Below, piece by piece: positions 4,469 through 46,347 of a stretch of DNA of 64,000 bases (the first letter of the stretch is position 1; every line of letters starts with the position of its first letter). Under the pieces are notes generated by a model that was not told the DNA's origin, ran no database searches, and saw only the letters and a list, made by a program, of their open reading frames with translations. This stretch comes from a virus (Duplodnaviria; Caudoviricetes): IMG/VR virus record IMGVR_UViG_3300028364_000013. One strand, given 5' to 3'. Made by a program: the position numbers and the translations under genes.

Positions 4469-4521
4469 ATTTATTTCAATAATTTTCCTTTCGAATACCA
4501 ATGGACGTTTCCATAGGGCAC

Positions 4522-4689: not shown

Positions 4690-4821
4690 GTTATTTCTAA
4701 ATATACTAAAATTTTGTTTTCTCGTTTTATTATACGCAAATATAATACTTTTGTTTCAATAAAACCTAATCTTTTTTAGATAAAATTAAAATTAATTTAT
4801 AATCACTTGATTGTTAGCGCT

Positions 4822-5370: not shown

Positions 5371-6138
5371 TTACCACCAATCCCAAAGGCAACTGTGCTT
5401 GTGGTTGTATCTGAATTCTACGAAGTCATCGCAGTAATCAGAAAGCCAACATCCCCAGTCATCGTTGATGTCATCATACTTCGCAAACATCATGCTCATG
5501 TTCTTTTTGAGCGCTTGCTTGTTGTGATGTCTATCGGCTCTGTTGTAGAGTTGAACCATGTCTTTGCTTGGTCCACTTCTCCATCCGTGCTTTTTCTTTT
5601 CATTAAAAAATGTAGTTTCTAAAGCAGCGTCAATTTCAGCCTCTTCTTGCTTAAGCACTTCATCAATCACTTTGTAGTGAGTCTTGTAGTGCTTAGACTT
5701 TTTTAGCTTAAAGTAGTACTCAGGTAAATTAACCTTGTAAAACTTTTTAACACTTCCCCAGTAAACTCTGTCTTCTGATGGGGCGTATACGAAGAATCTT
5801 TTGCACCACGGAAGAAGTCTTTCATAAGTACCTTCGTCAATTAATTTGAAGTAAGGCTTAATGTCAACTTCTCTTTTTTGCTTATAATCATATATGGTAA
5901 AAGACTTGTCTCTGCACCAAACTGATTTACCAAAGTGATAAATTAGATTCTCAATATCCTCTCCATCTTTACTTCTGGCAATGTCTGCTCTAAGCTTCCA
6001 TTCGCCATCGTAACCATCGTGGATTGGTTTATCAAGTGGTTTGTAACCAAGAGCTCTTTGAGCTTCCCAGTTTTCGTTTAACTCATTTTCCTTTCGGAGA
6101 TAAGCCTTGAACTTTTCAGTTCTCTCATTTCTTTTCAT
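5371..6138 (-). CDS. Hypothetical protein
   Basis: 255-aa ORF. Confidence 0.75.
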   Translation of the reverse strand: MKRNERTEKFKAYLRKENELNENWEAQRALGYKPLDKPIHDGYDGEWKLRADIARSKDGEDIENLIYHFGKSVWCRDKSFTIYDYKQKREVDIKPYFKLIDEGTYERLLPWCKRFFVYAPSEDRVYWGSVKKFYKVNLPEYYFKLKKSKHYKTHYKVIDEVLKQEEAEIDAALETTFFNEKKKHGWRSGPSKDMVQLYNRADRHHNKQALKKNMSMMFAKYDDINDDWGCWLSDYCDDFVEFRYNHKHSCLWDWW

Positions 6139-8888: not shown

Positions 8889-9246
8889 TCGTTACCTTTG
8901 TCGCTTACATCTCACCCACGCAAAAGCGATGAGTGAGTTTTACGCTCCGTTTTATAAAAAATGTGATGTTATCTCATAAGATAACGCTACTTTCATTGCA
9001 ACCTCTTTATCAAGACCTTCTAAAAAACCATACTCATCCCATCTATTAAAGATGTAGTGATTGGAAATTCTGTCTTTATCAAGGATTCCAAACCTTCCGC
9101 TGTTTAATAATTCACTCATGAGGAAATATACAAAAGATAATTCATAAAATCAAAAAAAGCCCTTAGAATAATCCAAGAGCTTTTTATATTATTCAGCGCA
9201 AAACCTAATCATCACCGTTGGTGTGACTGGGAGGATTGGGGGTTTT

Positions 9247-10275
9247 TTATTTAATCAAAAATTCTTGGAGAACCTCACTCCCAAACTCTCCTTTGGTTAA
9301 ATTAATTATTTCTGTAACTGAATATTTTTCTTTCTTATTTATTTTATTTCTCTCAACAAAATCTTTAACACCAAAACTGCAAGCTCCAGTTATAGCTCGA
9401 TAACAAGAAACTGCTTGCTCAAAACTTAACTTATCTGTTAGCTTTAAGTTTTTAAAATCATCTTTGTTTACATCAGAATTTAACTTATAAATCAAATCTT
9501 CTCTTGCTTCTGAAAGAGAGTCTCCATGAGCATATCTGCCATTCCCATCTGTAACCAAATAAAAAACCTTCTCTTTAAATAGCTCTTTAACTCTGAAAAC
9601 ACCGCCTCTCACAGAAATAATCTCTGTAAATATACCATCTGCCTTTATGTATTTATCGCCCCACATAACTGGTCCAATTAATTTCGTGTAATCACAAGTC
9701 AAACCTCCCAAGTCCAAACCTCCTCCAACGGTTGGGTTAAATCCCTCTGGAATCGAAGTCAAGTTGTTCAAGTACAAACCTTCTCCAACAGTTGGGTTAA
9801 ATCCCTCTGGAATCGAAGTCAAGTTGTTCAAGTACAAACCTTCTCCAACAGTTGGGTTAAATCCATCTGGAATCGAGGTCAAACTGTTCAAGTCCAAACC
9901 TCCTCCAACGGTTGGGTTAAATCCCTCTGGAATCGAAGTCAAGTTGTTCAAGTACAAACCTTCTCCAACAGTTGGGTTAAATCCATCTGGAATCGAAGTC
10001 AAACTGTTCAAGTCCAAATATCCTCCAACGGTTGGGTTAAATCCCTGTGGAATCGAGGTCAAACCGCTCAAGTCCAAACCTCCTCCAACGGTTGGGTTAA
10101 ATCCCTCTGGAATCGAAGTCAAGTTGTTCAAGTACAAACCTTCTCCAACAGTTGGGTTAAATCCATCTGGAATCGAAGTCAACCCTCTCAAGTGCAAGCT
10201 TCCATTTATTTTAACTTCACCAGTAAACTGCTCTTCAGTTAAATTGTATTCCTTGCAAAATTCTTTTTTATTCAT
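9247..10275 (-). CDS. Protein with tandem 20-aa LRR-like repeats (LxLxxLTSIPEGFNPTVGG)
   Basis: About 8 units of a 60-nt repeat; close paralog of 22234..23262. Confidence 0.85.
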   Translation of the reverse strand: MNKKEFCKEYNLTEEQFTGEVKINGSLHLRGLTSIPDGFNPTVGEGLYLNNLTSIPEGFNPTVGGGLDLSGLTSIPQGFNPTVGGYLDLNSLTSIPDGFNPTVGEGLYLNNLTSIPEGFNPTVGGGLDLNSLTSIPDGFNPTVGEGLYLNNLTSIPEGFNPTVGEGLYLNNLTSIPEGFNPTVGGGLDLGGLTCDYTKLIGPVMWGDKYIKADGIFTEIISVRGGVFRVKELFKEKVFYLVTDGNGRYAHGDSLSEAREDLIYKLNSDVNKDDFKNLKLTDKLSFEQAVSCYRAITGACSFGVKDFVERNKINKKEKYSVTEIINLTKGEFGSEVLQEFLIK

Positions 10276-10283
10276 AATGTTTT

Positions 10284-11831
10284 TTATTTTGTTTCTAATT
10301 TTATAAATGGTTTAATCTTTTCACACTGTTTTAGTGCGACTCTAATTTCTTCAAATTTTCCAGGAATTACTGGATAGTAGAGTTCATTTATTTTCGTAAT
10401 GGCATAGTGAATCTCTAGGACTAGCGGCCAACCTTTCTCAAGGTCTTTCCAAGGTTCTGCATCACCAATTCTCTTATTAAGTTCTTTTACAAGCTTGTTT
10501 GTCTCTTGAAGGGCGTCTGAAATTAGATAGTTGTTCCAAAGTGTTTTTATATTGTCAATTCTCTGGTCAAGTCCAACACACCATTTTTCTTCAGACACAT
10601 AAGAGTGGTCTAATTCAATATTTGGGTCATCCACGAACTTGTCGAGAGTCTTACTAGCCAATACGGTGACTCTGGTGACTAAATTACCATAATCATCAGC
10701 AAGGTCATTGTTGTATTTAGCTACAAGCAACTCTTCATCCCAAGATGAGTTTCCATAAGTTCTTAAACCCGCAAGCGCATAGTAACGAACTGCATCAACT
10801 CCATATTTTTTAACTTGGTCAATAGGGTCAACAACATTTCCAACAGACTTACTCATCTTACGTCCATCTTTATCCAAAATAGTTCCATGAACAAGTAATT
10901 TATCTGTTTTTTTGATTCCTGCAGACATTAATAGTCCCTGAAATATTACAGACTGGAATTTAAGGTTATCTGGGCCACAAATCTGAATTACTTCAGACTC
11001 ATTCCACCTTTCTTCAAAGTCATGGTCGTCATGAAGGTCATTAGGGTAGTATCCTGCAGCAAATATGTAGTTTAACAAAGCATCAAACCATACATATATG
11101 ATTTGGTCTTCATCTCCTGGAACTGGGATTCCCCAACTAACAGTTTCTTTAACTCTGGATATAGAAATGTCCTGAAGATTCTCTATAATCTTATCGAATT
11201 CTCCAATCTTATTCTTTGGTTCAAAAAATTTGTCATTTACATGCAGCCACTGAAGAAACCTTTCTCTATATTTAGAAAGTTTGAAGAAATAGTTTTCTTC
11301 TTCAACTTCTTGAAGCTCTGTTGTTGGGTGGTCTGGACAAACTTTTCTTTTGTGTATATGCACCTTAGGATATTCAAGAGCAGGGTCAACTCCTCCAATA
11401 ATTCTATCCTCAAGTTCTCTATCGCTTTTGAATGACTCGCATCCAACACAATAGGTTCCAGTGTATTTCTTTTTGTAGATGTCGCCTCTATTGAAGGCTT
11501 CAACCCAGAACTGCTGAACATTCACATAATGCTCTGAGTCAGATGTTCTGTAAAATGAATCCCAGCTATCAATCTTAAGTTCTTTAATGAAATCTTCCCA
11601 ACTGTAAAGAAGGTCATCAACATATGCTTGAGGAGAAATACCCTTAGCTTCAGCTGCTTGCTGAATCTTTAAGCCATGTTCATCAAGACCAATATTGAAA
11701 AATACATTATCACCACGATATTTGAAATATCTCACCAAAGCATCAGCTATGATAAATTCAAAAGCGTGTCCTATGTGCGGATTTGAGTTCGCATATGGCA
11801 ATGTGGTCGTTATGTATTTATTTTTATTCAT
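10284..11831 (-). CDS. metG: Methionyl-tRNA synthetase
   Basis: HIGH and KMSKS motifs, YVWFDAL, anticodon-binding helical C-terminus. Confidence 0.95.
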   Translation of the reverse strand: MNKNKYITTTLPYANSNPHIGHAFEFIIADALVRYFKYRGDNVFFNIGLDEHGLKIQQAAEAKGISPQAYVDDLLYSWEDFIKELKIDSWDSFYRTSDSEHYVNVQQFWVEAFNRGDIYKKKYTGTYCVGCESFKSDRELEDRIIGGVDPALEYPKVHIHKRKVCPDHPTTELQEVEEENYFFKLSKYRERFLQWLHVNDKFFEPKNKIGEFDKIIENLQDISISRVKETVSWGIPVPGDEDQIIYVWFDALLNYIFAAGYYPNDLHDDHDFEERWNESEVIQICGPDNLKFQSVIFQGLLMSAGIKKTDKLLVHGTILDKDGRKMSKSVGNVVDPIDQVKKYGVDAVRYYALAGLRTYGNSSWDEELLVAKYNNDLADDYGNLVTRVTVLASKTLDKFVDDPNIELDHSYVSEEKWCVGLDQRIDNIKTLWNNYLISDALQETNKLVKELNKRIGDAEPWKDLEKGWPLVLEIHYAITKINELYYPVIPGKFEEIRVALKQCEKIKPFIKLETK

Positions 11832-22170: not shown

Positions 22171-22233
22171 AATGTTTTTTGTCTGCGGAAACCAAATCAT
22201 CACCTTATGTGTGACTGGAATTAGCAGAGCTTT

Positions 22234-23262
22234 TTATTTAATCAAAAATTCTTGAAGAGCTTTACTTCCGAACTCTCCTTTGGTTAAATTAATTATTTCT
22301 TTAACTGAATATTTTTCTTTCTTATTTATTTTCTCTCTCTCAACAAAGCCTTTAACACCAAAACCGCAGGCTCCAGTTATAGCTCGATAACAAGAAATTG
22401 CTTGCTCAAAACTTAACTCATCTGTTAGTTTTAAGCCTTTAAAATCATCTTTATTTACATCAGAATTTAACTTGTAAATTAAATCCTCTCTGGCTTCAGA
22501 AAGAGAGTCTCCATGAGCATATTTGCCACCCCCATTTGTAACCAAATAAAAAACCTTCTCTTCACATAACTTCTTAACTCTGAAAACACCGCCTCTCACA
22601 GAAATAATCTCTGTAAATATACCATCTGCCTTTATATATTTATCGCCCCACATAACTGGCCCAACCAATTTCGTGAAATCACAAGTCAAACCTCCCAAGT
22701 GCAAACTTCCTCCAACGGTTGGGTTAAATCCCTCTGGAATCGAAGTCAAACTGTTCAAGTCCAAAGTTCCTCCAACGGTTGGGTTAAATCCCTGTGGAAT
22801 CGAGGTCAAACCGCTCAAGTCCAAATATCCTCCAACGGTTGGGTTAAATCCCTCTGGAATCGAAGTCAACCTGTTCAAGTACAAACCTTCTCCAACAGTT
22901 GGGTTAAATCCCTCTGGAATCGAAGTCAACCTGTTCAAGTACAAACCTTCTCCAACAGTTGGGTTAAATCCCTCTGGAATCGAAGTCAACCTGTTCAAGT
23001 ACAAATATCCTCCAACGGTTGGGTTAAATCCCTCTGGAATCGAGGTCAACCTGTTCAAGTACAAACTTCCTCCAACGGTTGGGTTAAATCCCTCTGGAAT
23101 CGAAGTCAAGCTGTCCAAGTACAAACTTCCTCCAACGGTTGGGTTAAATCCCTCTGGAATCGAAGTCAAGCTGTCCAAGTCCAAAGTTCCATTTATTTTA
23201 ACTTCACCAGTAAACTGCTCTTCAGTTAAATTGTATTCCTTGCAAAATTCTTTTTTATTCAT
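22234..23262 (-). CDS. Tandem 20-aa LRR-like repeat protein, paralog of 9247..10275
   Basis: Same length (342 aa) and repeat architecture. Confidence 0.85.
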   Translation of the reverse strand: MNKKEFCKEYNLTEEQFTGEVKINGTLDLDSLTSIPEGFNPTVGGSLYLDSLTSIPEGFNPTVGGSLYLNRLTSIPEGFNPTVGGYLYLNRLTSIPEGFNPTVGEGLYLNRLTSIPEGFNPTVGEGLYLNRLTSIPEGFNPTVGGYLDLSGLTSIPQGFNPTVGGTLDLNSLTSIPEGFNPTVGGSLHLGGLTCDFTKLVGPVMWGDKYIKADGIFTEIISVRGGVFRVKKLCEEKVFYLVTNGGGKYAHGDSLSEAREDLIYKLNSDVNKDDFKGLKLTDELSFEQAISCYRAITGACGFGVKGFVEREKINKKEKYSVKEIINLTKGEFGSKALQEFLIK

Positions 23263-23346
23263 AATGTTTTTTTCTTCAGAAACCCAATCATCACCGCATG
23301 TGTGGTTGGGTTATTGACATTATACGCAGTAAATCAAAAAATGTTC

Positions 23347-26183: not shown

Positions 26184-26225
26184 ATACATATGTCTATTTC
26201 ACTTTCCATTTTATTTATTTTTTTG

Positions 26226-26323
26226 TGGACAATACGAGAATCGAACTCGTATCTCCAGTTTGCGCTATCCTGTGTGGTTGCACTTCATAGCCTTCACCGA
26301 TTTACCAATTAATCTAATTGCCC
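26226..26323 (-). ncRNA. tRNA-like RNA with expanded, non-canonical anticodon region
   Basis: Acceptor GGGCAAT/ATTGTCC, D-arm and T-arm intact; ~45-nt insert with GCTAT/ATAGC pairing. Confidence 0.6.
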
Positions 26324-26328
26324 TTTTG

Positions 26329-26398
26329 TTGGTGTAGAGGGACTCAAACCCCCGACCCCCTGAATTACAGGTGCTCTAATCAACTGAGCTATACACCG
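26329..26398 (-). ncRNA. tRNA-like RNA with collapsed anticodon loop and C1xA72
   Basis: CCTG-TAATT-CAGG (5-nt loop), otherwise a cloverleaf. Confidence 0.6.
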
Positions 26399-29721: not shown

Positions 29722-29770
29722 ATATTTCAAATTTTAAGATTCTGAACGTTTCTCAAAAACCTTTGGACAC

Positions 29771-29936: not shown

Positions 29937-29981
29937 TGTGTTTCTTTTTTCTAAATAGTAATTAAAAATTCTTTTTTTGTT

Positions 29982-33989: not shown

Positions 33990-34945
33990 TTAAAAGCCTG
34001 AGTTTACAGCATTTATTAGCGTCCTTTAATGACCTTACCCACATCATCTTGCGGTTAATCAATGTATCCACGCACCCTTTCAGGTGGTATACGCCAGTCT
34101 CGATACCTATGGGGTATCATTCCTATCGTGCAATCTAACTCTGTATTTTCCACCTACACTATCTTGCCAGACATATGCGAGCTTTCGTTACAATCGACAC
34201 CCACCTTGCGAGGATGAATGACTCCCTGATTCTGCCGAAGCATCCAGGGTCTGAGAGACCTTTTAATATACACGCCCATGAGACTTTCACTTTTTTTCTG
34301 TTTATAGTAAAAACCAGCCATGCCAAGGCTAATATATACTGCATGAGATATACAGTACGAAGAGACGTGCCCACAGGAGTGGTTTCATAACTTTTTGGTT
34401 ACAAAATGCCACACGCCTCTCTGTTAGTCTATGCTGACCAACAATTAAACCCGAATTACTTTCTACGAATAGTTAAGTAACCAAATCCAAATGAGATGAA
34501 GCCCTTGCGTTTCTTACACGCTCGAACAACACAACTAAGCTTTTCCTTTTCATCAGCCGAAGCCAACTTTTTTTGCAAAATTTCTAATGCTCAACTACCA
34601 TTTTTAATCTCATGATAGTTTACCTTGTCCAGGTAAGTACTCACTTATTGCATAGGTGTCCAACAGAATAAATTCTGAAGGCGAGGGTGACACCCCCTTT
34701 TATAGCTTGTTACCAAACTTTATCTTCCCACAAGGGGCTTGCAATGATTTTCATCACCACGAGACTCTACACAGCCTCAAAATGATTGTTATTTGAATTG
34801 TAAAAGCTGGTTCATGTTACATAACCAATTTAAAAGCGAAGGACTCTGCTATATTTCATACAGTTGAATGTTTGTCCCATTCTCACTTTCCTCACTTACT
34901 CTTACTGTCGAATGGACCTAAACATTTAGACCAATAACAATTTTT
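33990..34945 (-). ncRNA. Large structured non-coding RNA candidate (~950 nt, possibly GOLLD-like)
   Basis: No credible ORF; own TAGCTTTG promoter at ~34985 and a terminator; many hairpins (TTACCT/AGGTAA, AACTATCAT/ATGGTAGTT, TACTGTAT/ATGCAGTA, GATACC/GGTATC, TTCG loops). Confidence 0.65.
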
Positions 34946-35690: not shown

Positions 35691-35741
35691 AACCTATCTG
35701 TTTAAAGATAAATAGTACAAAAAAGTACAAAATCGACTAAG

Positions 35742-35814
35742 GGAATCCATACGGGATTCGAACCCGTGCCTCCTGCCGAAAGGCAAGCGCTCTATCCGCT
35801 GAGCTAATGGACAC
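35742..35814 (-). ncRNA. tRNA-like RNA, Glu(TTC)-like with 6-nt anticodon loop
   Basis: CTTGC-CTTTCG-GCAGG; D- and T-arms canonical; imperfect acceptor. Confidence 0.55.
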
Positions 35815-35897: not shown

Positions 35898-35997
35898 TGG
35901 CGAAGGGAGGATTCGAAACCTCCGACCCCCAATGCTGTCCATTCTTTCACAAGAACAACTAACACACTGGTGCTCTGACCAACTGAGCTACCTCGCC
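35898..35997 (-). ncRNA. tRNA-like RNA with elongated anticodon arm capped by a GTGA tetraloop
   Basis: Acceptor GGCGAGG/CTTCGCC; CCAGTG..TTCTT-GTGA-AAGAA..CATTGG. Confidence 0.65.
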
Positions 35998-36210
35998 AAA
36001 TGATGATGTAGTCACTTACGCAGCAACACCATCAATTTTTTAGACTTTCAAAAAAGGCATAACCCCTTTCAATACATCTAAATGGGTCAAGATGACATTT
36101 GCATTAGCATCAGCTTTCAGCAGAACCTCAAGTGATGGATAATACGTTATATCTCTTTCTTCCATTTCCTCCCACCCATAACATGAACAGTGACCACCTG
36201 ATACCGCAGC

Positions 36211-39518: not shown

Positions 39519-40226
39519 ATGAATTTAGTAGAACAGCTGGCTAAAATATTAAAACCAATACTATCTGAAGAATTGGAACCAGAGGGCGCTTCATACAAAT
39601 CTACTCTTAATAGAATATCTGAATTGTCAGATGAGATTAATGATTTGATTGACGAATCGGATGACCTACCTTCTTGGATTCAAGATAAGATTACAATAGC
39701 AAATCACAATATGGATGCTATTCTTGGTTATTTTAAATCTCAAGAACTTGACGAAGAGTCAAAAGGTCTTTGGGCAAATATTCACGCCAAGAGAAAAAGA
39801 GGAGAATCTCCTGCTAAAAAAGGAGAAAAAGATTATCCAGATAAAAAATCATGGGACAAAGCTTCTAAGTCAGAATCTCTTTCAGAAGAAGAATATAATG
39901 AAGCATGTTCAATAATGGAAAGAGTATCTTTCATGTCTGAAGGAGATAAGTTCGGCTTTAAAGAGATTGATGCTCCAGAATTAAATGAAGCTGAATACCA
40001 AGGTAGAAAAGTTGAGCTGGGAAAACCTACAGCAGGTGATGTCAAAAAATTTAAAGTATACGTTAAGAATGATAAAGGAAACGTAGTTAAAGTAAACTTT
40101 GGACAAAAGGGTGTTAGAATTAAAAAAAATAACCCAGAAAGAAGAAAGTCATTTAGAGCAAGACACAACTGTGAAAACCCAGGACCAAGATGGAAGCCGA
40201 GATATTGGTCTTGTAAAAAATGGTAA
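39519..40226 (+). CDS. Hypothetical phage protein
   Basis: C-terminal KVNFGQKG..RRKSFRARHNC..RYWSCKKW; start MNLVEQ. Confidence 0.7.
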   Translation: MNLVEQLAKILKPILSEELEPEGASYKSTLNRISELSDEINDLIDESDDLPSWIQDKITIANHNMDAILGYFKSQELDEESKGLWANIHAKRKRGESPAKKGEKDYPDKKSWDKASKSESLSEEEYNEACSIMERVSFMSEGDKFGFKEIDAPELNEAEYQGRKVELGKPTAGDVKKFKVYVKNDKGNVVKVNFGQKGVRIKKNNPERRKSFRARHNCENPGPRWKPRYWSCKKW

Positions 40227-40227
40227 A

Positions 40228-40560
40228 ATGAAAAAAGTAATCTGCAAAAATTGTGATTGGAAATGGGATATAGAAAAGGATGACAAAAACCCTTACTTAT
40301 GTCACAAATGTGGGTACGATAATAAGAAAGATAAATTTGACTACAAAGCTCTTAATAAATGGAAGAGTGATAATGGAATCAAAGAATATATAATAGACAT
40401 CAGAAAAATAATACAGGAAGAATTTGAAAAAATTTTTAAAATTGATTATCCATACCATAAAATCGAAAAGCTAGTAGATTATTATAAGGAAGAGTTTGAT
40501 GATTATATGGATAAACAAGGGTGGAATATATTTCAATCCGATTCACCTTCGCTTTTATGA
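40228..40560 (+). CDS. Small zinc-finger protein
   Basis: CKNCDWKW..CHKCG. Confidence 0.55.
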   Translation: MKKVICKNCDWKWDIEKDDKNPYLCHKCGYDNKKDKFDYKALNKWKSDNGIKEYIIDIRKIIQEEFEKIFKIDYPYHKIEKLVDYYKEEFDDYMDKQGWNIFQSDSPSLL

Positions 40561-40927
40561 TAAATATAATACTGATGGTGATTATTTTTGGCAAATTCAA
40601 GTTGTAGATGAGCCATATGGAGAAGCTGGATTCTATGACCAAGATAAAAATGCTGTTATTGGAATTTCTACAGACCAAGAAGCTATAGGGCTTGCTAGAA
40701 AAACAGGCCTCATGGTTGATGATGATGGAGTTGTGTTTGGATTTCAAGGACATTCACTTTTATCTGAAGAAATTAACTTGCCGATAGAAATTGGTGATGA
40801 AATTTTAACTGGACGATTCAAAAACAAGAAGACTAAAATTAAATCTATTGATAAAAACGATAAGGGCGACTTAACAATTAATGATAAGCCTGCTCTTAAG
40901 TTTAGAATACCTAAAAATACAAAATAG
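40496..40927 (+). CDS. Hypothetical protein
   Basis: 143-aa ORF. Confidence 0.6.
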   Translation: MMIIWINKGGIYFNPIHLRFYDKYNTDGDYFWQIQVVDEPYGEAGFYDQDKNAVIGISTDQEAIGLARKTGLMVDDDGVVFGFQGHSLLSEEINLPIEIGDEILTGRFKNKKTKIKSIDKNDKGDLTINDKPALKFRIPKNTK

Positions 40928-40984
40928 AATTAAACAATCCTACCAAAATCTCTTTTACCAACTTTCATTATTTGACTCCGCATG

Positions 40985-41058
40985 TACCGATGAAGGGTTT
41001 CGAACCCTAAGCCTTATCCTTATGAGGGATACGTACTAACCTATTATACGACATCGGC
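40985..41058 (-). tRNA. tRNA-Met(CAT)
   Basis: TATCC-CTCATAA-GGATA. Confidence 0.85.
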
Positions 41059-41093
41059 ATGTGATGGATTGATAGCTCCATCGGGCATTTTCC

Positions 41094-42181
41094 TTATGAG
41101 AATCCATTGTTCTTCTTCCACTGCTCATGCTTTTGCTCAACACTATACATGAAAGAACCTCCTGGAATTACCTTCGCATCTGGGAATCCGTTTTCTGTTG
41201 TCAAAACAGATTCTGATTCTTTTATTGCACCAGTAAACTTTCCAGCACCTTTCTTATTTTCAATATTACCTGTTGAAGGATTGTATTAAAATTAATTTTT
41301 ACTTTTTTTAGTTTATTTATTAATAAACCAAATATGAAACCTAAATATACAAACGAACAACTTAAACATGCTAAGTCTTTTGATAAATTACCATTAGAAT
41401 GTTATGAATGTAATAAAGATTTTTTTATAGCAAAGACGCACATCAAAGATGCTAAAAATCCAAATTGCAAAAGAACTGGTGAATTTTGCTCAAAACAATG
41501 TTTGTCTTTATCAAAAAAAACAAAAGCTAAATATAATTGTCATAACTGCGGAAAAGAATGTGAAAAAAAGATTTCTCAAATAAAACTATCAAAATCAGGT
41601 TATAATTTTTGCTCAAGGAGCTGCACATCATCTTATCATATGAAAAACAAAAAATACGGCACAAATAGGTCTAAATTAGAACAGTGGATTGAAATTCAAT
41701 TAACAAAATTATACCCAAATCTTAAAATATCTTATAATGACAGGCAAATTTTAAATCCTTTGGAATTAGATATATTTATCCCAGAATTGTCAATAGCATT
41801 TGAATTAAACGGCATTTTTCATTATGAACCCATATTTGGACCTGAAAAGCTAAATAAAACTCAAACTAAAGATTTCAACAAACACAAACTTTGCTTTGAT
41901 AAAAGGGTGGATTTATGTGTAATTGACACATCAAGTCAAAAATATTTTAAAGAACAGACATCTAATAAGTTTTTAAATATAATTATAAAAATTATTCAAG
42001 AAAGATTTTAATTCTATGTAACTTATTTGAACAAATAATCCGTTCTAACACCACCCTTAGGCTCAATAAACTCTACCATATAAGACTGTTCAGTTCCATC
42101 ATTCATATGAACAATCAAGTTACCAGTTTCATCTCGGTTCACTAAAAAATTCTTTCTCACCTCTTCTCTCTTGTCTTTCAT
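41094..42181 (-). pseudogene. Small gene split by the inserted endonuclease (42181-42038 and 41285-41094)
   Basis: N-part MKDKREEVRKNFLVNRDETG..IEPKGGVRTD; start-less C-part YNPSTGNIENKKGAGKFTG..KKNNGFS*. Confidence 0.65.
41334..42011 (+). CDS. Putative PD-(D/E)XK homing endonuclease with zinc-binding N-terminus
   Basis: ELDIFIPELSIAFELNGIFHY; several CxxC. Confidence 0.8.
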   Translation: MKPKYTNEQLKHAKSFDKLPLECYECNKDFFIAKTHIKDAKNPNCKRTGEFCSKQCLSLSKKTKAKYNCHNCGKECEKKISQIKLSKSGYNFCSRSCTSSYHMKNKKYGTNRSKLEQWIEIQLTKLYPNLKISYNDRQILNPLELDIFIPELSIAFELNGIFHYEPIFGPEKLNKTQTKDFNKHKLCFDKRVDLCVIDTSSQKYFKEQTSNKFLNIIIKIIQERF

Positions 42182-42227
42182 GACTTTTGTTTTTAAAATT
42201 ATATTTTATTTCATTATCGAACAAATG

Positions 42228-42301
42228 AGCAGGTAGACGGGATTGAACCGTCTCTATTCCAGATTGGAAATCTGGCGCACCACCATTTATGCGTTACCTG
42301 C
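42228..42301 (-). tRNA. tRNA-Gly(TCC)
   Basis: CCAGA-TTTCCAA-TCTGG, U73. Confidence 0.9.
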
Positions 42302-42306
42302 GTTTG

Positions 42307-42461
42307 TGGACATGGGAGGAATTAAACCCAAGACGTAAATCTCGCTTACTTTGCTCCTGAAATGACTAATGCGCACTTATCAATTCACTCACGTTTCAAC
42401 CCTTAGCTTTCTTAGCACCAACACCAAAGTTGGGACGGTTCATCTCACCGCAAGCATATCC
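42307..42461 (-). ncRNA. ~155-nt tRNA-like RNA with large internal insertion
   Basis: Acceptor GGATATG/CATGTCC-A, T-loop-like GGG-TTTAATT-CCT, CTTGC/GTAAG closing helix. Confidence 0.45.
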
Positions 42462-42496
42462 ATATTTGCCTATTTATAGTCGTAGCAAGGACTTTG

Positions 42497-42569
42497 AGCG
42501 AAATGTGGGAATCGAACCCCGTCTTCTCCTTGGAAGGGAGACGCTTTCAGCCATTAAGCTACATCTCGC
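42497..42569 (-). tRNA. tRNA-Gly(TCC)
   Basis: TCTCC-CTTCCAA-GGAGA, U73. Confidence 0.9.
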
Positions 42570-42774
42570 ATATGGAGTCATTTATACACAGCTCCTGAGT
42601 GTTTATTTTACTTATTAAGATTTTTTAATTTATCTTTCTTATTGTCCTCTTGGGTAATTCTTAATCTTGCTGCGAAGTCCATTTGTGAAATTAGTTTTTT
42701 AATCCTATCAGGGTCTTCATTTTCTTTATTTTTCATAGTTTGGTTTTTAACAATATTATAGCCTTCAACTTTTG

Positions 42775-42858
42775 TGGGGGTGGTTGGATTCGAACCAACT
42801 CAGACCTATGCCAATGGTGTTACAGACCATCCCAACTCTCCAACTTTGGCGCACCCCC
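42775..42858 (-). tRNA. tRNA-Tyr(GTA)
   Basis: ATGGT-CTGTAAC-ACCAT, long variable arm. Confidence 0.9.
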
Positions 42859-42984
42859 AGTTTACGAAATTTCTTTTATTTTCAGTTTGCGGATTTCGTA
42901 ATCCCATTTCTGCTATTCTTAATTTGTCAGGGAACAAAGCACTGACAAACGTCTTGTCTGAATTGTAAAATTCATTTCCCTTAG

Positions 42985-43057
42985 TGGAGGTGGTCGAAAT
43001 CGAATCGACCTCAGGAACATTGCAAATGTTTCTCGCCAGCCTTGGACATGCACCCCC
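42985..43057 (-). tRNA. tRNA-Ala(TGC)
   Basis: AACA-TTTGCAA-TGTT; G3:U70. Confidence 0.9.
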
Positions 43058-43117
43058 ATTGCGCTATGGTGGAAAGTACTTTCCTATGGTTACCATAACT
43101 TATTTATCCGCTTTTTG

Positions 43118-43195
43118 TGGAGAAATAGGGAGTTTAACCCAGTTCAGTCGCTCCGCTAAGCTGTTACACAACATTAACTGAATACTTAAATCTCC
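43118..43195 (-). ncRNA. D-armless tRNA-like RNA
   Basis: GGAGA/TCTCC-A acceptor, TTCAGT/ACTGAA long stem, GGG-TTAAACT-CCC T-arm. Confidence 0.45.
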
Positions 43196-43196
43196 A

Positions 43197-43710
43197 TTAT
43201 TTATTATTTTTCATAATTTCAAAGTACTTCTGATTCCTCAATCTTTTTTTCTTGTCGATTCTATTTCTAAAATCTTTAAGAAGAGGTTCTGGAATCTGGA
43301 TGCCCCTCTTTTGGAACTCTCCTAATATTTCTTCCTCTGTAAATGTCCAGTCGCAAATTCCATCGCTCCACTGGTCCACCCAAAGACCAAAACTTCTTTT
43401 TCCACTCATTACAGCTTTGACGATATTCGGATGTCTTGTCCTTATCACTGTATTCCTCTTGATGTCTCCGTTTTCAACTTGCCTAAAGCAATATTTACCT
43501 TCTTCACCATTTGGGTCAAACTCAGTTTCTATTATTGAGCCTGAGAATTCTAATAACCCACTTCTATAGCTCTTAAGAAAAAATATAAACATTTCATTGA
43601 AGTTATCAGAATATTTTCTAAGCTTCCTGTTTTTTCTACTTCCTACTTTCTTTTTTTGCTCATCAAGCCTACTTAACTTCTGGCTCCCAAGCGGTGTTCT
43701 CCTTGCTCTT
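43197..43710 (-). CDS. Hypothetical protein
   Basis: Long ORF between tRNAs; exact start uncertain. Confidence 0.6.
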
Positions 43711-43751
43711 TCATTTTTTCTAAATTTATAAATTAATTTAACATTACCCAG

Positions 43752-43824
43752 CGGTCCCGAACGGATTCGAACCGTCAACCATCTCGCAGACAACGAGCTA
43801 CACTACCAATTGTGCTACGGGACC
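43752..43824 (-). tRNA. tRNA-Asp(GTC)
   Basis: CTCG-TTGTCTG-CGAG, G73. Confidence 0.8.
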
Positions 43825-43830
43825 TTATTG

Positions 43831-43904
43831 TCTAAGTGACAGGGGTCGAACCTGCGGCCTGAGCGCCCCAAACGCCCCACTCTACCAAACTGAGCTACAC
43901 CTAG
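43831..43904 (-). tRNA. tRNA-Pro(TGG)
   Basis: GGGCG-TTTGGGG-CGCTC, C1-G72. Confidence 0.9.
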
Positions 43905-43912
43905 ATATTTTG

Positions 43913-43988
43913 CGGTCTATACGGTTTTCGAATCCGTCTGATATTCCTCCGTGACAGGGAGGTGGACACCCAAGCATCCCCATAGACC
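43913..43988 (-). tRNA. tRNA-Asp(GTC)
   Basis: CCTCC-CTGTCAC-GGAGG, G73. Confidence 0.88.
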
Positions 43989-43999
43989 ATTTTTTTAAG

Positions 44000-44075
44000 T
44001 CTGATGAGCTGGATTTGAACCAACGTGCTGCAATTTCCAAAATTGCCGAGATAAGCCTGACTCCTCTATCACCAG
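44000..44075 (-). tRNA. tRNA-Pro(TGG)
   Basis: GCAAT-TTTGGAA-ATTGC. Confidence 0.88.
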
Positions 44076-44152
44076 ATATTTTACTTTAATTTCCAAGATG
44101 TCAATTTTTTACTTTCGAAAGACTCAGTGACGTTTCACAAAAGTCTATAAAC

Positions 44153-44186
44153 AAAAAAAGCTCGGTCCTTTTTGGAACCGAGCTTT
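44153..44186 (-). terminator. Intrinsic terminator (attenuator) ahead of the Pro/Asp/Ala/Tyr/Gly/Met cluster
   Basis: AAAGCTCGGT(T)CC..GGACCGAGCTTT plus T-run. Confidence 0.85.
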
Positions 44187-44212
44187 AAACTATTCGTTTA
44201 GATATTATATTA

Positions 44213-44332
44213 TCAAACTTTAAGTTTATGCAAAACGATTCCGTCCCTGCTGCAATCATCTGCCGCTGGCGCCCCCATATAGCCCATCGGGTTAATTGAA
44301 GTGTTCTCGTTATATGTATAAACTTTTTCCAT
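44213..44332 (-). CDS. Putative leader peptide: MEKVYTYNENTSINPMGYMGAPAADDCSRDGIVLHKLKV
   Basis: 39 aa; core PMGYMGAPAADD uses only amino acids served by the downstream tRNAs. Confidence 0.82.
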   Translation of the reverse strand: MEKVYTYNENTSINPMGYMGAPAADDCSRDGIVLHKLKV

Positions 44333-44467
44333 TTGAATTTGTTTCTCTTTTTTCTAAATAGCAGAAAATTTCTTTTTCCGCTTTCTTCTACGCAAATATA
44401 TAACATTTGTTCTATTAAATCCAAATCTTTTTTAAAGAAATATTGAAAATAATTTTGAACCTCTTGA

Positions 44468-44640
44468 TTACCAGCAGTTTATCTCACGATAAAATTTTTC
44501 GAAATTTTTCATTTCTTGTATTGTGTAGCCGTATCTCTTTCTATTATGCTCTAAAGACTTCTTAATATCACCATCTTTATTCCTTAAAGTTGATGCCTTC
44601 CAATCAACAAGCATTTCAATTCTATCAAGTGGTTGCATTT
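44468..44640 (-). pseudogene. C-terminal fragment of a DUF5662-like protein
   Basis: IEMLVDWKA..RNKDGDI..SLE.N.KRYG; N-terminus absent. Confidence 0.45.
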
Positions 44641-45101
44641 CCTTTAGCAATAAGTACATCAGCAGGAGTCCATACAGCAACCATGTCAACACCTATTTTC
44701 TTACGTTTTCCAGTTTTAATAGTCTTACCATCAGAAGTAACTTTCACTACGTCTCTTGTTTCAGTGTATCCAGTATTATACTTAATAGAAGCATCTGTAT
44801 TCTCGCTTGCAGCGATGAAGTTAATTGCCTCTGGGTTATAAGTTGTTTCATCTGTGTTTACAGGGATTCCATTATCAGCAGCCCATTTTACAACGATATT
44901 CCAGTCACCATCTCTAATAACGGTAGCACATGTCATACCTCTTGCATTTTGAGGGTCTTGCTTAACAGATGGTGGAGCCATGAATTGGTCCTCACCTAAT
45001 GAACGTCCACATGAGTATATAATCTCAGCTGTGTAGTCATTACCTAATCTTGATAACTGTTCGTTAGCTCCTGCAAGCCATGCTGGACCATAATCACCCA
45101 A
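44625..45101 (-). CDS. Hypothetical protein
   Basis: 158-aa ORF. Confidence 0.65.
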   Translation of the reverse strand: MGDYGPAWLAGANEQLSRLGNDYTAEIIYSCGRSLGEDQFMAPPSVKQDPQNARGMTCATVIRDGDWNIVVKWAADNGIPVNTDETTYNPEAINFIAASENTDASIKYNTGYTETRDVVKVTSDGKTIKTGKRKKIGVDMVAVWTPADVLIAKGNATT

Positions 45102-45183
45102 TTGTTTATTTAATTAATTATTAGTTTAGCGACTACAAAATAAGCCAAAATTTACAACCTATGCAAATTTTAGCCTATATTTT

Positions 45184-45651
45184 TTAATACTTCATTGGAA
45201 AGTCTTCCAAATCTTGGTATACAATTATTTTACATGAATCATTTTCGATTACAATATCTAAGTGAGTTCTTACTTCAGTAGCATTAATTTCTGCTATATA
45301 AACAAGAGTCTTAATGCCATCTTCATCATACATTTTCTTAGGCTTACCAAGTTTGTATCCGAACTGCATTTTTTTATAGTGCTCAAGAATAACATCTTCA
45401 CCGTGTAGGTCAATGCTCATTTGAGAAGTAAACGCCAGCATAGTTTCATACTCGCCTTGTATATACAAAGTTTGGAAGAAGTTTCCAAAATCGCTTCCAT
45501 ATATCAAAGCAGGATTAGAAAAAGGTTTATTTTCTAACTCAGAAGAGCTATCTTTAGCTGTAACCAATGGACCTGGGCCTGGCTTTATTTCAAGCTCATC
45601 ACATGACACAGTGATTAAACAGACTAATAATATGTAAATATAGTTTCTCAT
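45184..45651 (-). CDS. Putative lipoprotein
   Basis: Signal peptide ending ITVSC. Confidence 0.7.
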   Translation of the reverse strand: MRNYIYILLVCLITVSCDELEIKPGPGPLVTAKDSSSELENKPFSNPALIYGSDFGNFFQTLYIQGEYETMLAFTSQMSIDLHGEDVILEHYKKMQFGYKLGKPKKMYDEDGIKTLVYIAEINATEVRTHLDIVIENDSCKIIVYQDLEDFPMKY

Positions 45652-45762
45652 AATATTATCTTGTACGTATAAAAGTTAAAAAATGTTTCAAATTTTTATA
45701 GAAAAATACTAAATGTCTATTAAACTCAACATATTAGAGTCTAAAAAACTATTAACTATCTA

Positions 45763-46347
45763 ATGTCTGATGTTGATTTTAAGGAAGAGTTTGCTGTAGA
45801 GTATAGCTCTATATTTGAGAAGCACTTAAGAAAACTATTGAATGACGGGCCTATACTTAAGCAAGCTTGCAAGGATAGGTTTGGTAAGTTACTTGAACCA
45901 GATGAAGAGAAAGAGCCTGAGTACCCAGAATCGGGTTCTGGCGAAAACGTTGCTCCAGGACCAATCTTGTCAGACTCTAAAGAAGTAGTTGTGTATACTG
46001 GCCCAAAAACAGAAAACAAGGAACCAGCTTTGCTATTGGTGGGAGACCCTGAAAAAGTAAAACACCTATAAAGAAAAATTGTTCAAAAGACACATCCAGA
46101 CAAAGTGAATAGCGATGCGCTAAATGAACTTTACTATAAAGCTACAAAAGCTAATAAGTCGAAAGACCTTCTAGCTCTATACTCTATTTGTAATGAGCTT
46201 GGAATTAAGTTCAATATTACTGATAAAGAAATTGCTATAATTAAGAACAGACTTCTTGCGATAAAACAACAACAAGAAAGGTTTGAGAAAAGCCACTTAT
46301 GGTTATGGGCAAACATAGAAGATGATAAACAAAAAAGGAAATACTAA
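45763..46347 (+). pseudogene. J-domain (HPD)-like gene interrupted by an in-frame TAA at 46069-46071
   Basis: Frame continues KVKHL*RKIVQKTHPDKVNSDALNELY. Confidence 0.7.

What the first reader, a model, noticed from the sequence alone, without database searches (positions are those of the whole stretch)
44153..44332. Six-amino-acid sensor PMGYMGAPAADD matches a nine-tRNA cluster
Twelve consecutive residues use only Pro, Met, Gly, Tyr, Ala and Asp. The downstream canonical tRNAs (44075 to 40985) are exactly Pro x2, Asp x2, Ala, Tyr, Gly x2 and Met. These GC-rich codons stand out in the AT-rich genome. Antiterminator GGAATCG pairs with CGGTTCC. The ORF is in a different frame from the supplied 44185..44424 ORF and is missing from the track.
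Basis: partly seen in the sequence, partly recalled or inferred. Interest (0 to 1): 0.88.

Follow-up and report, generated by a model that had tools for sequence, protein, structure and literature searches.

The report
Leader-peptide switch gating phage tRNA genes
A 39-codon mini-gene, with 12 codons in a row for exactly the six amino acids whose tRNA genes lie downstream, sits with a transcription stop signal between a strong promoter and a nine-tRNA cluster of a 195-kb lake phage, so the phage probably makes these tRNAs only when ribosomes read those codons slowly, a control I found no paper on for tRNA genes.

Summary
ORF 44332..44213 (minus strand) reads PMGYMGAPAADD at codons 15-26. The downstream tRNAs are Pro x2, Asp x2, Ala, Tyr, Gly x2 and Met. 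Ala appears only at a relaxed ARAGORN threshold, but it has G3:U70 and anticodon UGC.

A run this long has P of about 2.5e-6. It is the longest such run among 1527 small ORFs of the genome; the next best is 7.

The unit is one of five in this phage. Each has the order: Bacteroidota-type promoter, leader ORF, intrinsic terminator, tRNA cluster. Each leader spells its own cluster, for example seven Gln codons before four tRNA-Gln genes. The true leader-to-cluster pairing is the best of 120 permutations.

Relatives show the same. A phage with only 59% portal identity has a different leader sequence made of the same six amino acids. In metagenome variants the tRNA order and copy number change (up to 19 genes), but the six-amino-acid set does not.

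Across 14 units, a segment just after the key codons pairs with the terminator's 5' arm (0 of 20000 swaps as strong).

Ribosome-mediated attenuation is the best reading, but nothing has been tested experimentally. I found no published description. This scan has already reported the same design in other phage genomes.

The parts
44378..44434 (-). Promoter module. It has a Bacteroidota-type -33 TTTG (44425-44422) and -7 TATATTTG (44400-44393). It is one of five or six near-identical copies in the window.
   Evidence: Repeat families D3/D5/D6 have copies at 812-756, 4778-4722, 30033-29977, 44434-44378 and 60082-60026, each upstream of a tRNA cluster. This is the only TTTG-N21-TAnnTTTG site on the tRNA strand between 46000 and 40500. 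The consensus itself is from established knowledge of Bacteroidota promoters.
44351..44360 (-). TATTTAGAAA box, 18 nt before the leader ATG. Its function is unknown; it may be a translation-start context.
   Evidence: The same box lies 2-18 nt before the ATG of all five leaders in this phage. TATTTA(A/T)AA-like boxes also occur in the relatives.
44213..44332 (-). Leader ORF of 39 codons plus TGA: MEKVYTYNENTSINPMGYMGAPAADDCSRDGIVLHKLKV.
   Evidence: Variants in metagenome contigs keep the frame, and the only indel inside the ORF is 6 nt.
44255..44290 (-). Regulatory run of 12 codons, PMGYMGAPAADD. All six amino acids of the downstream tRNA set are represented.
44230..44248 (-). Candidate upstream strand of the antiterminator. 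The core GGAATCG lies at 44242-44236, 12 nt after the last regulatory codon.
   Evidence: RNAduplex gives -11.7 kcal/mol with the terminator 5' arm, which is not significant alone (p = 0.43). When the 3' arm is left out and a ribosome is placed on the run, the predicted fold pairs it with the arm. The ortholog has GGGAGCGG:CCGCUCCC at the same place, -19.4 kcal/mol, p = 0.006. Variant L212 keeps and extends the pairing.
44153..44186 (-). Intrinsic terminator: AAAGCTCGGTTCC-AAAAA-GGACCGAGCTTT followed by TTTTTTT. CGGTTCC at 44180-44174 is the arm shared with the antiterminator.
   Evidence: -17.6 kcal/mol; z = -5.6 for 44250-44150. Three compensatory stem changes are seen in variant L212.
44088..44104 (-). 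Conserved box TTGACATCTTGGAAATT between the terminator and the first tRNA. Its function is unknown.
   Evidence: In IMG/VR, 36 of 81 matches to TTGACATNTTGG(N)AAATT lie 0-102 nt (mostly 0-6 nt) before the first tRNA of a cluster. Most are preceded by a terminator and a matched leader.
43751..44075 (-). tRNA-Pro(tgg), Asp(gtc), Pro(tgg), Asp(gtc). One copy of each pair is canonical and the other divergent.
42984..43057 (-). tRNA-Ala(tgc). It is divergent, but has G3:U70 and a canonical anticodon loop.
   Evidence: ARAGORN at relaxed thresholds. Rfam does not report it.
42227..42858 (-). tRNA-Tyr(gta) 42858-42774, Gly(tcc) 42569-42496, an odd 155-nt tRNA-like RNA at 42461-42307, and Gly(tcc) 42301-42227.
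40984..41058 (-). tRNA-Met(cat), the last member of the cluster. A zf-FCS ORF on the opposite strand (41334-42011) separates it from the rest.

Best explanation
This is a ribosome-mediated (leader-peptide) transcription attenuator that gates a phage tRNA operon.

Proposed mechanism: host RNA polymerase starts at the strong Bacteroidota-type promoter (44425-44393). It transcribes a 39-codon leader that a ribosome translates at once. Codons 15-26 are a checklist of the codons read by the nine tRNAs downstream (Pro, Met, Gly, Tyr, Ala, Asp), many of them rare codons.

If those codons are decoded quickly, the ribosome runs on over the segment GGAATCG (44242-44236). The terminator hairpin (44186-44157) then forms and transcription stops at the T tract, so no tRNA is made.

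If any of the six charged tRNAs is short, the ribosome stalls in the run. Shortage could come from a poor match between host tRNA pool and phage codons, from host tRNA loss during infection, or from cleavage by a tRNA-targeting defence. The segment behind the stalled ribosome then stays free and pairs with the 5' arm of the terminator (CGGTTCC, 44180-44174). The polymerase reads through into the tRNA genes. Rising phage tRNA levels then close the switch again, which gives negative feedback.

Four more such units, each with its own amino-acid set, control the other tRNA clusters of this phage.

Shown from sequence: the parts, their order, the codon-to-anticodon match, its recurrence and conservation, in-frame evolution, and family-wide complementarity to the terminator arm.

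Inferred: that the leader is translated, that stalling causes read-through rather than the reverse, and that no other promoter feeds the tRNAs.
For: (1) The run of 12 from the cluster's six amino acids has P of about 2.5e-6. It is the longest of 1527 small ORFs, with the next best at 7.

(2) 11 of 12 codons are cognate to downstream anticodons, and every one of the six tRNA species is represented.

(3) The phage has five units with the same build:
- A2: MKTVININVQQQQQQQ..., followed by Gln x4.
- B: ..ILRQLSLQFLQLLFVFSRQKFGR.., followed by Phe, Val, Leu x3 and Arg(acg). The leader uses CGT.
- C: ..NIHTTINNTICNKKQN.., followed by Asn, His, Thr, Lys, Ile, CAU-tRNA and Cys.
- E: ..RWSRWSSSSNR.., followed by Ser x5, Arg(tct, cct), Trp and Cys. 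TCC, AGT and TCG each match one Ser anticodon.
The true pairing of leaders and clusters is the best of 120 permutations, by cognate codons (67 against a next best of 52) and by run length.

(4) Relatives:
- G002 (portal 59% identical) has (M)KTVTTYSATTPAAPMMGGAGYAPAYDYSYGSGYVLTFRKLG before Pro x2, Asp x2, Tyr x3, Ala x2, Gly x2 and Met. It also has matched C-, E-, B- and Leu/Cys-type units.
- G003 groups its tRNAs differently (His, Phe, Cys, Thr, Leu), and its leader reads LHTTSLHCLTTF.

(5) Metagenome variants of this very leader sit before clusters with different order and copy number. L208 has 19 tRNAs, drawn only from Asp, Ala, Tyr, Pro, Gly and Met.

(6) An independent sample of 18 units, fetched through the TTGACAT box, was tested: the native leader-cluster assignment beats 20000 shuffles.

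(7) All 14 units examined have a terminator of -15 to -19.9 kcal/mol starting about 20-40 nt after the stop.

(8) A segment at codons 20-38 pairs with the terminator 5' arm. The Fisher combined p is 4e-11. Native pairs average -14.8 kcal/mol against -10.1 for swapped pairs, with 0 of 20000 permutations as strong.

(9) With the 3' arm not yet made and a ribosome placed on the run, the predicted fold pairs the arm upstream in all five units.

(10) Indels inside leader ORFs are 3 or 6 nt. Nearly all those outside are not multiples of three; they are 1, 2, 4, 10 or 15 nt, with one of 3 nt in a spacer.

(11) Variant L212 has three compensatory changes in the terminator stem. It keeps the TTCC part shared with the antiterminator, and a leader T-to-G change adds pairs.

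(12) This is the only consensus promoter on the tRNA strand in 46000-40500.
Against: - There is no expression, ribosome-profiling or 3'-end data. No RNA run holds this phage.
- For this unit alone the antiterminator is weak: -11.7 kcal/mol against -17.6 for the terminator. It is no better than shuffled leaders (p = 0.43) or swapped terminators (5 of 12 as strong).
- At equilibrium the terminator wins in four of five units, so the model needs kinetics.
- In the static fold the pairing also forms with no ribosome, or with a ribosome at the stop codon, in units D and C.
- GGC is not read by Gly-UCC under standard wobble.
- The local fold of the run region is not unusually stable (z = 0.45).
- The conserved TTGACAT box between terminator and tRNA is unexplained and could be a second, independent entry point for transcription.
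- tRNA-Met lies beyond an opposite-strand ORF, so it may not belong to the same transcript.
- The six metagenome variants were fetched with a pattern that fixes the peptide. Conservation of the run among them is therefore by construction.
Confidence: 0.75

Rival explanations
1. The leader is translated and does sense decoding of the cluster's codons, but the output is not the classical switch in which a stall frees an antiterminator. Alternatives include: stalling changes RNA processing or stability of the precursor; the ribosome acts through direct coupling to the polymerase; or the logic is reversed, so that fast translation promotes read-through as a feed-forward signal.
For: The antiterminator of this unit is not significant on its own. 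Static folds do not give a clean three-state switch for units D and C. The conserved TTGACAT and TATTTAGAAA boxes have no role in the classical model.
Against: Across 14 units the complement of the terminator arm is significant. It always lies just downstream of the key codons and upstream of the stop, which is the geometry of classical attenuators. In units B and E the segment is sequestered when no ribosome is present, as in trp-type attenuators.
Confidence: 0.12
2. The promoter, small ORF and terminator form a separate tiny transcription unit or insulator. The tRNAs are made from another start, for example one associated with the TTGACAT box and read by a phage-modified polymerase. The terminator would then not be a regulated gate.
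For: A conserved box lies directly before the first tRNA in at least 36 phage contigs. Its TTGACA resembles a -35 hexamer, and in this unit a TAAAAT follows 15 nt later.
Against: In most contigs the tRNA starts 0-6 nt after the box, so a -10 element would fall inside the tRNA. Bacteroidota primary sigma factors do not use TTGACA/TATAAT (established knowledge). There is no TAnnTTTG promoter between the terminator and the tRNAs. This reading also gives no reason why leader composition should track the tRNA set in every unit.
Confidence: 0.07
3. The region acts as an RNA-only sensor or a small RNA, such as a T-box-like element that binds tRNA directly. The open frame would be incidental.
For: The run is GC-rich in an AT-rich genome, as structured RNAs often are. 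Rfam gives weak sub-threshold hits over the terminator region (GibS, L20 leader).
Against: No Rfam family reaches threshold. The run region does not fold better than shuffles. The key codons are always in frame with a start and a stop. Indels keep the frame. Orthologous leaders differ in sequence yet keep composition. A T-box reads one specifier codon, not twelve codons for six tRNAs (established knowledge).
Confidence: 0.03
4. It is a chance ORF, or an ordinary small protein gene that happens to end at an ordinary terminator. The match to the tRNA set would be coincidence.
For: Small ORFs are plentiful: 1527 of 15-80 codons in this genome. The peptide matches no known family.
Against: P is about 2.5e-6 for the run. 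The same rule holds in all five units here and in more than 25 units elsewhere.
Confidence: 0.02

Closest known systems
Leader-peptide transcription attenuators of amino-acid biosynthetic operons (trpL, hisL, pheL, leuL, and the multivalent thrL and ilvL/ivbL of Enterobacteria)
   Same: Both have a short translated ORF with a run of codons for the relevant amino acids, followed by an intrinsic terminator. A segment after the run is complementary to the terminator's 5' arm. Both can be multivalent (several amino acids in one leader), as in thrL (Thr and Ile) and ilvL (Leu, Val, Ile). This comparison rests on established knowledge.
   Different: The genes controlled here are tRNA genes, not enzymes. 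The element is phage-borne and lies in a Bacteroidota-type promoter context. It checks six amino acids at once, and five such units divide up most of the phage's tRNA set. There is no sequence relationship, and no Rfam leader family matches.
pheST attenuator (pheM leader) of E. coli, which controls phenylalanyl-tRNA synthetase
   Same: A leader peptide senses charged tRNA supply and controls a component of the translation machinery for that same amino acid, which closes a feedback loop (recalled from established knowledge, not tested here).
   Different: It controls a synthetase, senses one amino acid and is a cellular gene. Here the product is the tRNA itself.
T-box riboswitches of Firmicutes
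   Same: They respond to the same physiological variable, the supply or charging of a particular tRNA. They also use a terminator/antiterminator choice in a 5' leader.
   Different: A T-box binds the tRNA directly through one specifier codon and the acceptor end, without a ribosome. Here twelve in-frame codons for six tRNAs lie in a translated ORF, and there is no T-box match in Rfam.
Codon-matched leader attenuators before tRNA clusters in other uncultured phages, reported earlier by this scan (e1-5368892, e1-5355741, e1-5347817, e1-3411523, e1-5338825 and others)
   Same: The design is the same: a mini-ORF written in the amino acids of the tRNAs behind it, plus a terminator, several units per phage, in Bacteroidota-type phages. 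I reproduced this design independently in relatives and in 18 further IMG/VR units.
   Different: Those are other genomes. This is a further member with its own partition of amino acids. Their claims were not re-tested on their own DNA here.
Phage tRNAs as a counter to host tRNA-cleaving defences (PMC10264068, PMC11555353, PMC12409363)
   Same: This work gives a reason why a phage would need to replace particular tRNAs on demand.
   Different: As far as their titles and abstracts show, those papers concern what phage tRNAs do, not how their genes are switched. No attenuator is mentioned there.

Membership tests
Leader-peptide (ribosome-mediated) transcription attenuator | A short ORF with a start and a stop lies in the 5' leader, between the promoter and the first controlled gene | tested here: met
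   39-codon ORF 44332..44213 with ATG and TGA, downstream of promoter 44425-44393 and upstream of tRNA-Pro 44075.
Leader-peptide (ribosome-mediated) transcription attenuator | A cluster of regulatory codons for the amino acid(s) tied to the controlled genes | tested here: met
   12 consecutive codons from the six amino acids of the cluster. P is about 2.5e-6, 11 of 12 are cognate to downstream anticodons, and the codons are rare.
Leader-peptide (ribosome-mediated) transcription attenuator | An intrinsic terminator lies between the leader stop codon and the first controlled gene | tested here: met
   Hairpin 44186-44157 (-17.6 kcal/mol) plus a T tract to 44153, 26 nt after the stop and 77 nt before the tRNA.
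Leader-peptide (ribosome-mediated) transcription attenuator | An alternative antiterminator pairing uses the terminator's 5' arm, and its upstream strand lies just after the regulatory codons | tested here: inconclusive
   The family-wide test is met: Fisher p = 4e-11, and 0 of 20000 swaps are as strong. For this unit, GGAATCG:CGGTTCC exists at the expected place but is not above chance (p = 0.43). Support comes from the ortholog (p = 0.006) and from variant L212.
Leader-peptide (ribosome-mediated) transcription attenuator | An anti-antiterminator (1:2) pairing gives termination when the leader is not translated | tested here: inconclusive
   It is predicted in units B and E and in the G002 ortholog, where Ala-Pro-Ala codons pair with the antiterminator strand. 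It is not clear in unit D.
Leader-peptide (ribosome-mediated) transcription attenuator | The leader is translated, and read-through rises when the cognate charged tRNA is scarce | not testable with these tools
   No RNA or ribosome-profiling data exist for this phage. The only indirect evidence is in-frame indels.
Rfam leader families (His_leader, Thr_leader, Leu_leader, Trp_leader and the like) | A match to the covariance model at or near the gathering score | tested here: not met
   No leader family appears in the gathering-score search of the whole window. None of the amino-acid operon leader families appears at E <= 1 in 40000-46000; the one leader hit there is ribosomal-protein L20_leader at 22 bits, against a cut-off of 58.7, over the terminator.
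T-box riboswitch | A T-box covariance-model match with a specifier loop and T-box sequence | tested here: not met
   No T-box hit at E <= 1.

The most novel reading that the evidence does not exclude
The phage carries a bank of five multiplexed tRNA-supply sensors. Each attenuator reads out, in real time, how well the infected cell decodes one subset of codons. It switches on only the matching block of phage tRNA genes. This would let the phage adapt to different hosts. It would also let the phage answer host defences that cut or deplete particular tRNAs with a targeted, self-limiting replacement. The widely conserved TTGACAT box behind the terminator may be a further, unknown part of the same device.
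Probability: 0.6. Interest if true: 0.9.

Novelty: new variant of a known kind. Interest (0 to 1): 0.85.

Why it matters
Phage tRNA genes have been known for more than fifty years, and their role is still debated: codon compensation, or replacement of tRNAs lost to host shut-off or defence nucleases (PMC10264068, PMC11555353). How their expression is controlled is hardly discussed.

A leader that lists the codons of the tRNAs behind it would mean the phage measures demand for each tRNA group and supplies it by feedback. That would also be the first case I know of in which classical attenuation controls tRNA genes.

The reading makes the 'why do phages carry tRNAs' question testable: the leaders state which shortages the phage expects. 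It also offers compact, modular sensors of decoding speed for six or more codon families. And it gives an annotation rule for unusual tRNAs. For example, unit C's leader contains ATA, so its CAU tRNA is predicted to be Ile2, while unit D's leader contains ATG, so its CAU tRNA is predicted to be Met.

Tried and rejected
- DNA search of the GenBank phage collection with 43000-46000 found only tRNA-Pro look-alikes and no relative.
- Exact or degenerate promoter patterns in IMG/VR found nothing. The leader's first 23 nt found nothing either.
- The upstream 158-aa ORF gave one relative without tRNAs. The 703-aa ORF upstream of unit E gave none.
- Five further portal-relative contigs held no tRNAs.
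- Sequencing runs: only DNA runs from lake or salt-lake water hold the stretch. The RNA runs share only a few words, probably tRNA, so no expression evidence could be drawn.
- Reads laid from four runs gave one 95% variant contig plus paralogous promoter copies.
- Equilibrium folding with ribosome masks favours the terminator in four of five units. I set that model aside for a kinetic one.
- The local fold of the run region is not more stable than shuffles.
- I first thought TTGACA...TAAAAT after the terminator was a sigma-70 promoter. I dropped this because in most phages the tRNA starts 0-6 nt after the box.
- I looked for leaders before the amber-suppressor tRNA, before the odd tRNAs near 36000, and at the extra TATTTAGAAA box at 58132. 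None was found.
- Five literature searches for leader-peptide or attenuator control of phage or other tRNA genes found nothing relevant.
- Complex prediction, structure prediction and the large protein searches were not used, because they do not bear on this question.

Full report
**What is there.** The window is the minus strand of a 195,333-bp virus record from lake water. The record has a T4-like terminase, portal and DNA polymerase. Its nearest cultured relatives by portal are Flavobacterium phages, at 40% identity. The window holds 37 tRNA genes by default ARAGORN, all on the minus strand and grouped in clusters.

On that strand the finding reads as follows:
- An ATG at 44332 opens a 39-codon ORF, MEKVYTYNENTSINPMGYMGAPAADDCSRDGIVLHKLKV, which ends at TGA 44215-44213.
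- 26 nt later comes a 12-bp G+C-rich hairpin (44186-44157) with a T tract to 44153.
- 77 nt after that comes tRNA-Pro.

Eight genes are found at default settings. tRNA-Ala(UGC) 43057-42984 appears at a relaxed threshold, and it has G3:U70 and a canonical anticodon loop.

**Is it more than chance?**
- The six amino acids make up 28.8% of residues in the phage's long ORFs. A run of 12 in a 38-residue peptide has P of about 2.5e-6.
- Among all 1527 small ORFs of the genome this one has the longest such run; the next best is 7.
- 11 of the 12 codons are cognate to a downstream anticodon.
- The run is 64% GC in a 34% GC genome, and it prefers rare synonymous codons (P = 0.006).

**The unit is one of a set.** A roughly 57-nt repeat with a Bacteroidota-type promoter (TTTG, about 21 nt, TAnnTTTG) occurs five or six times. 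Each copy is upstream of a tRNA cluster. Each cluster is preceded by a small ORF and a terminator:
- A2: MKTVININVQQQQQQQSSKEDSPGGA, before four tRNA-Gln.
- B: ..ILRQLSLQFLQLLFVFSRQKFGR.., before Phe, Val, Leu and Arg(acg).
- C: ..NIHTTINNTICNKKQN.., before Asn, His, Thr, Lys, Ile, a CAU tRNA and Cys.
- E: ..RWSRWSSSSNR.., before Ser, Arg(tct, cct), Trp and Cys.

The match holds at anticodon level. Unit E uses AGA for Arg and has Arg-UCU. Unit B uses CGT and has Arg-ACG. The Ser codons of unit E cover all three Ser anticodons. In the 5x5 table of leaders against clusters, the true pairing is the best of 120 permutations.

**Relatives.** Portal relatives are common in IMG/VR.
- One 154-kb contig (G002, 59% portal identity) has 40 tRNAs in the same types of cluster.
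- Its D-type unit has a leader of different sequence, (M)KTVTTYSATTPAAPMMGGAGYAPAYDYSYGSGYVLTFRKLG. That leader lies before Pro, Asp, Tyr, Ala, Gly and Met tRNAs.
- G002's other units also match their clusters. So do units in G003, G004 and L078. G003 groups His, Phe, Cys, Thr and Leu, and its leader reads LHTTSLHCLTTF.
- A degenerate pattern for the peptide found six metagenome variants of this very leader.
- Downstream of those variants, the order and copy number of tRNAs differ widely. L208 has 19 genes and begins with Asp. Yet only the six amino acids occur.
- Conservation of the run among these six variants is by construction of the search. The constancy of the tRNA set is not.

An independent sample came from a conserved box (next paragraph). 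It gave 18 further units, in which native leader-cluster assignment beats 20000 shuffles.

**An unexplained box.** The box TTGACATCTTGGAAATT (44104-44088) lies between the terminator and the first tRNA. Of 81 matches to it in IMG/VR, 36 sit 0-102 nt (mostly 0-6 nt) before the first tRNA of a cluster. Usually they come just after a terminator and a matched leader. The geometry does not fit a sigma-70 or a Bacteroidota promoter. I leave it unexplained.

**Is the ORF read as codons?**
- In pairwise alignments of units B and A2 with their L078 orthologs, the only indels inside the ORFs are 3 nt. In A2 the indel removes one Gln codon. The flanks carry indels of 1, 2, 4, 10 and 15 nt.
- Among the D variants the only ORF indel is 6 nt. 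The flanks carry mostly 1-nt indels, plus one of 3 nt in a spacer.
- A 95% variant from a salt-lake run has two changes in the ORF. One is GCG to GCA inside the run, which is synonymous and still read by Ala-UGC. The other is I13N outside the run. The same variant has eight changes in the 30-nt spacer after the terminator.

**The switch.**
- All 14 units studied have a terminator of -15 to -19.9 kcal/mol.
- In each, a segment at codons 20-38, after the key codons, is complementary to the terminator's 5' arm. In all but one unit (G002's Leu/Cys unit, where it runs into the stop codon) it lies before the stop.
- Examples are GGUCGAGCU:AGCUCGGCC in unit C, GAGAUGGG:CCCAUCUC in G003, and GGGAGCGG:CCGCUCCC in the G002 D-type unit.
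- Against shuffled leaders the combined p is 4e-11.
- Native pairs average -14.8 kcal/mol against -10.1 for swapped pairs, with 0 of 20000 permutations as strong.
- When the 3' arm is left out and a ribosome is placed on the run, the arm pairs upstream in all five units.
- At equilibrium the terminator wins in four of five units, as it does for classical attenuators.

It is not above chance alone (p = 0.43; 5 of 12 swapped terminators pair as well).

Variant L212 helps a little. Its terminator stem carries three compensatory double changes. The TTCC shared with the antiterminator is kept. A G-to-A change in the arm turns the G-U pair into A-U. A leader T-to-G change adds three pairs.

**Transcription unit.** The promoter before the leader is the only full consensus site on the tRNA strand in 46000-40500. 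tRNA-Met lies beyond an opposite-strand zf-FCS ORF, so its membership in the transcript is uncertain.

**Comparison with known systems.** The build is that of leader-peptide attenuators (trpL, hisL, and the multivalent thrL and ilvL). Among systems acting on the translation apparatus, the pheST attenuator is the nearest. The element is not a member of any Rfam leader family, nor a T-box. What is new is the target (tRNA genes), the carrier (a phage) and the multiplexing.

Five literature searches found no description. Papers on phage tRNAs as counter-defence supply a rationale. This scan has already followed up the same design in other phage genomes. I did not rely on those notes; I reproduced the pattern on independent DNA.

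**Verdict.** The mechanism is most likely ribosome-mediated attenuation that gives demand-driven tRNA synthesis (confidence 0.75). The weakest link is the antiterminator of this particular unit. The decisive evidence still missing is experimental.

Noticed in passing
window 44088-44104 (minus strand); loci L092-L171: A conserved box, (G)TTCT-TTGACAT-R-TTGG-(N)-AAATT, lies directly 5' of the first tRNA of phage tRNA clusters. 36 of the 81 matches examined sit this way. It usually comes just after the attenuator terminator. Its function is unknown, and it fits neither a sigma-70 nor a Bacteroidota promoter geometry.
   Followed up: partly
window 33995-34421 (minus strand): The Rfam GOLLD RNA family matches above its gathering score (169 bits, E = 8.5e-46). 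The match lies between tRNA clusters, next to odd tRNA-like genes at 35997-35741.
   Followed up: partly
window 44351-44360, 29948-29957, 4694-4703, 520-529, 59882-59891 (minus strand): A TATTTAGAAA or TATTTAAAAG box lies 2-18 nt before the ATG of every leader ORF. Relatives have similar boxes. It may be a translation-start context for hosts that lack Shine-Dalgarno pairing.
   Followed up: partly
window 43751-44075: The tRNAs come in pairs for the same anticodon. One copy is canonical and one strongly divergent, for example the two tRNA-Pro(tgg) and the two tRNA-Asp(gtc). The relative G002 shows the same. The divergent copies might resist tRNA-cleaving defences.
   Followed up: no
window 44468-45101 (minus strand): The two ORFs just upstream of the promoter look like gene remnants. 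The 158-aa ORF equals only the N-terminal part of a longer protein in relative L001. The 74-aa ORF, in another frame, matches only positions 98-138 of the 156-position DUF5662 model.
   Followed up: partly
genome G000:C1:73284-73356 (outside the window, about 2.7 kb beyond its end): A tRNA with anticodon CUA (an amber suppressor, which ARAGORN labels 'Pyl') lies next to tRNA-Lys(ctt). No leader ORF precedes it. G002 has one too (L075).
   Followed up: partly
window 9576-10295 and 22563-23282: Two arrays of eight 60-nt tandem repeats lie 13 kb apart, inside a larger duplicated segment (9244-9543 versus 22231-22530, 91% identical).
   Followed up: no
window 42307-42461, 35741-35813, 26225-26398, 35898-35997: Several tRNA-like genes have abnormal anticodon loops or long insertions. 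One is a 155-nt RNA closed by an acceptor-like stem, between the two tRNA-Gly genes.
   Followed up: no
window 41334-42011 (plus strand): A 225-aa ORF with an MYM-type zf-FCS zinc finger lies on the opposite strand, inside the tRNA cluster, between tRNA-Gly and tRNA-Met.
   Followed up: no
window 44125-44136, 29750-29760, 4508-4518 (minus strand): A short motif GAAACGT(C/T)CA recurs 20-30 nt after the terminators of units B, C and D. A related GGAAGCGTCCA occurs in L078.
   Followed up: no
L072 (G002), minus-strand positions 5685-5798: A further leader, ..GFLCLCAPLCLSS, precedes tRNA-Leu(taa) and two tRNA-Cys. It ends at TAG in a phage that carries an amber-suppressor tRNA.
   Followed up: no
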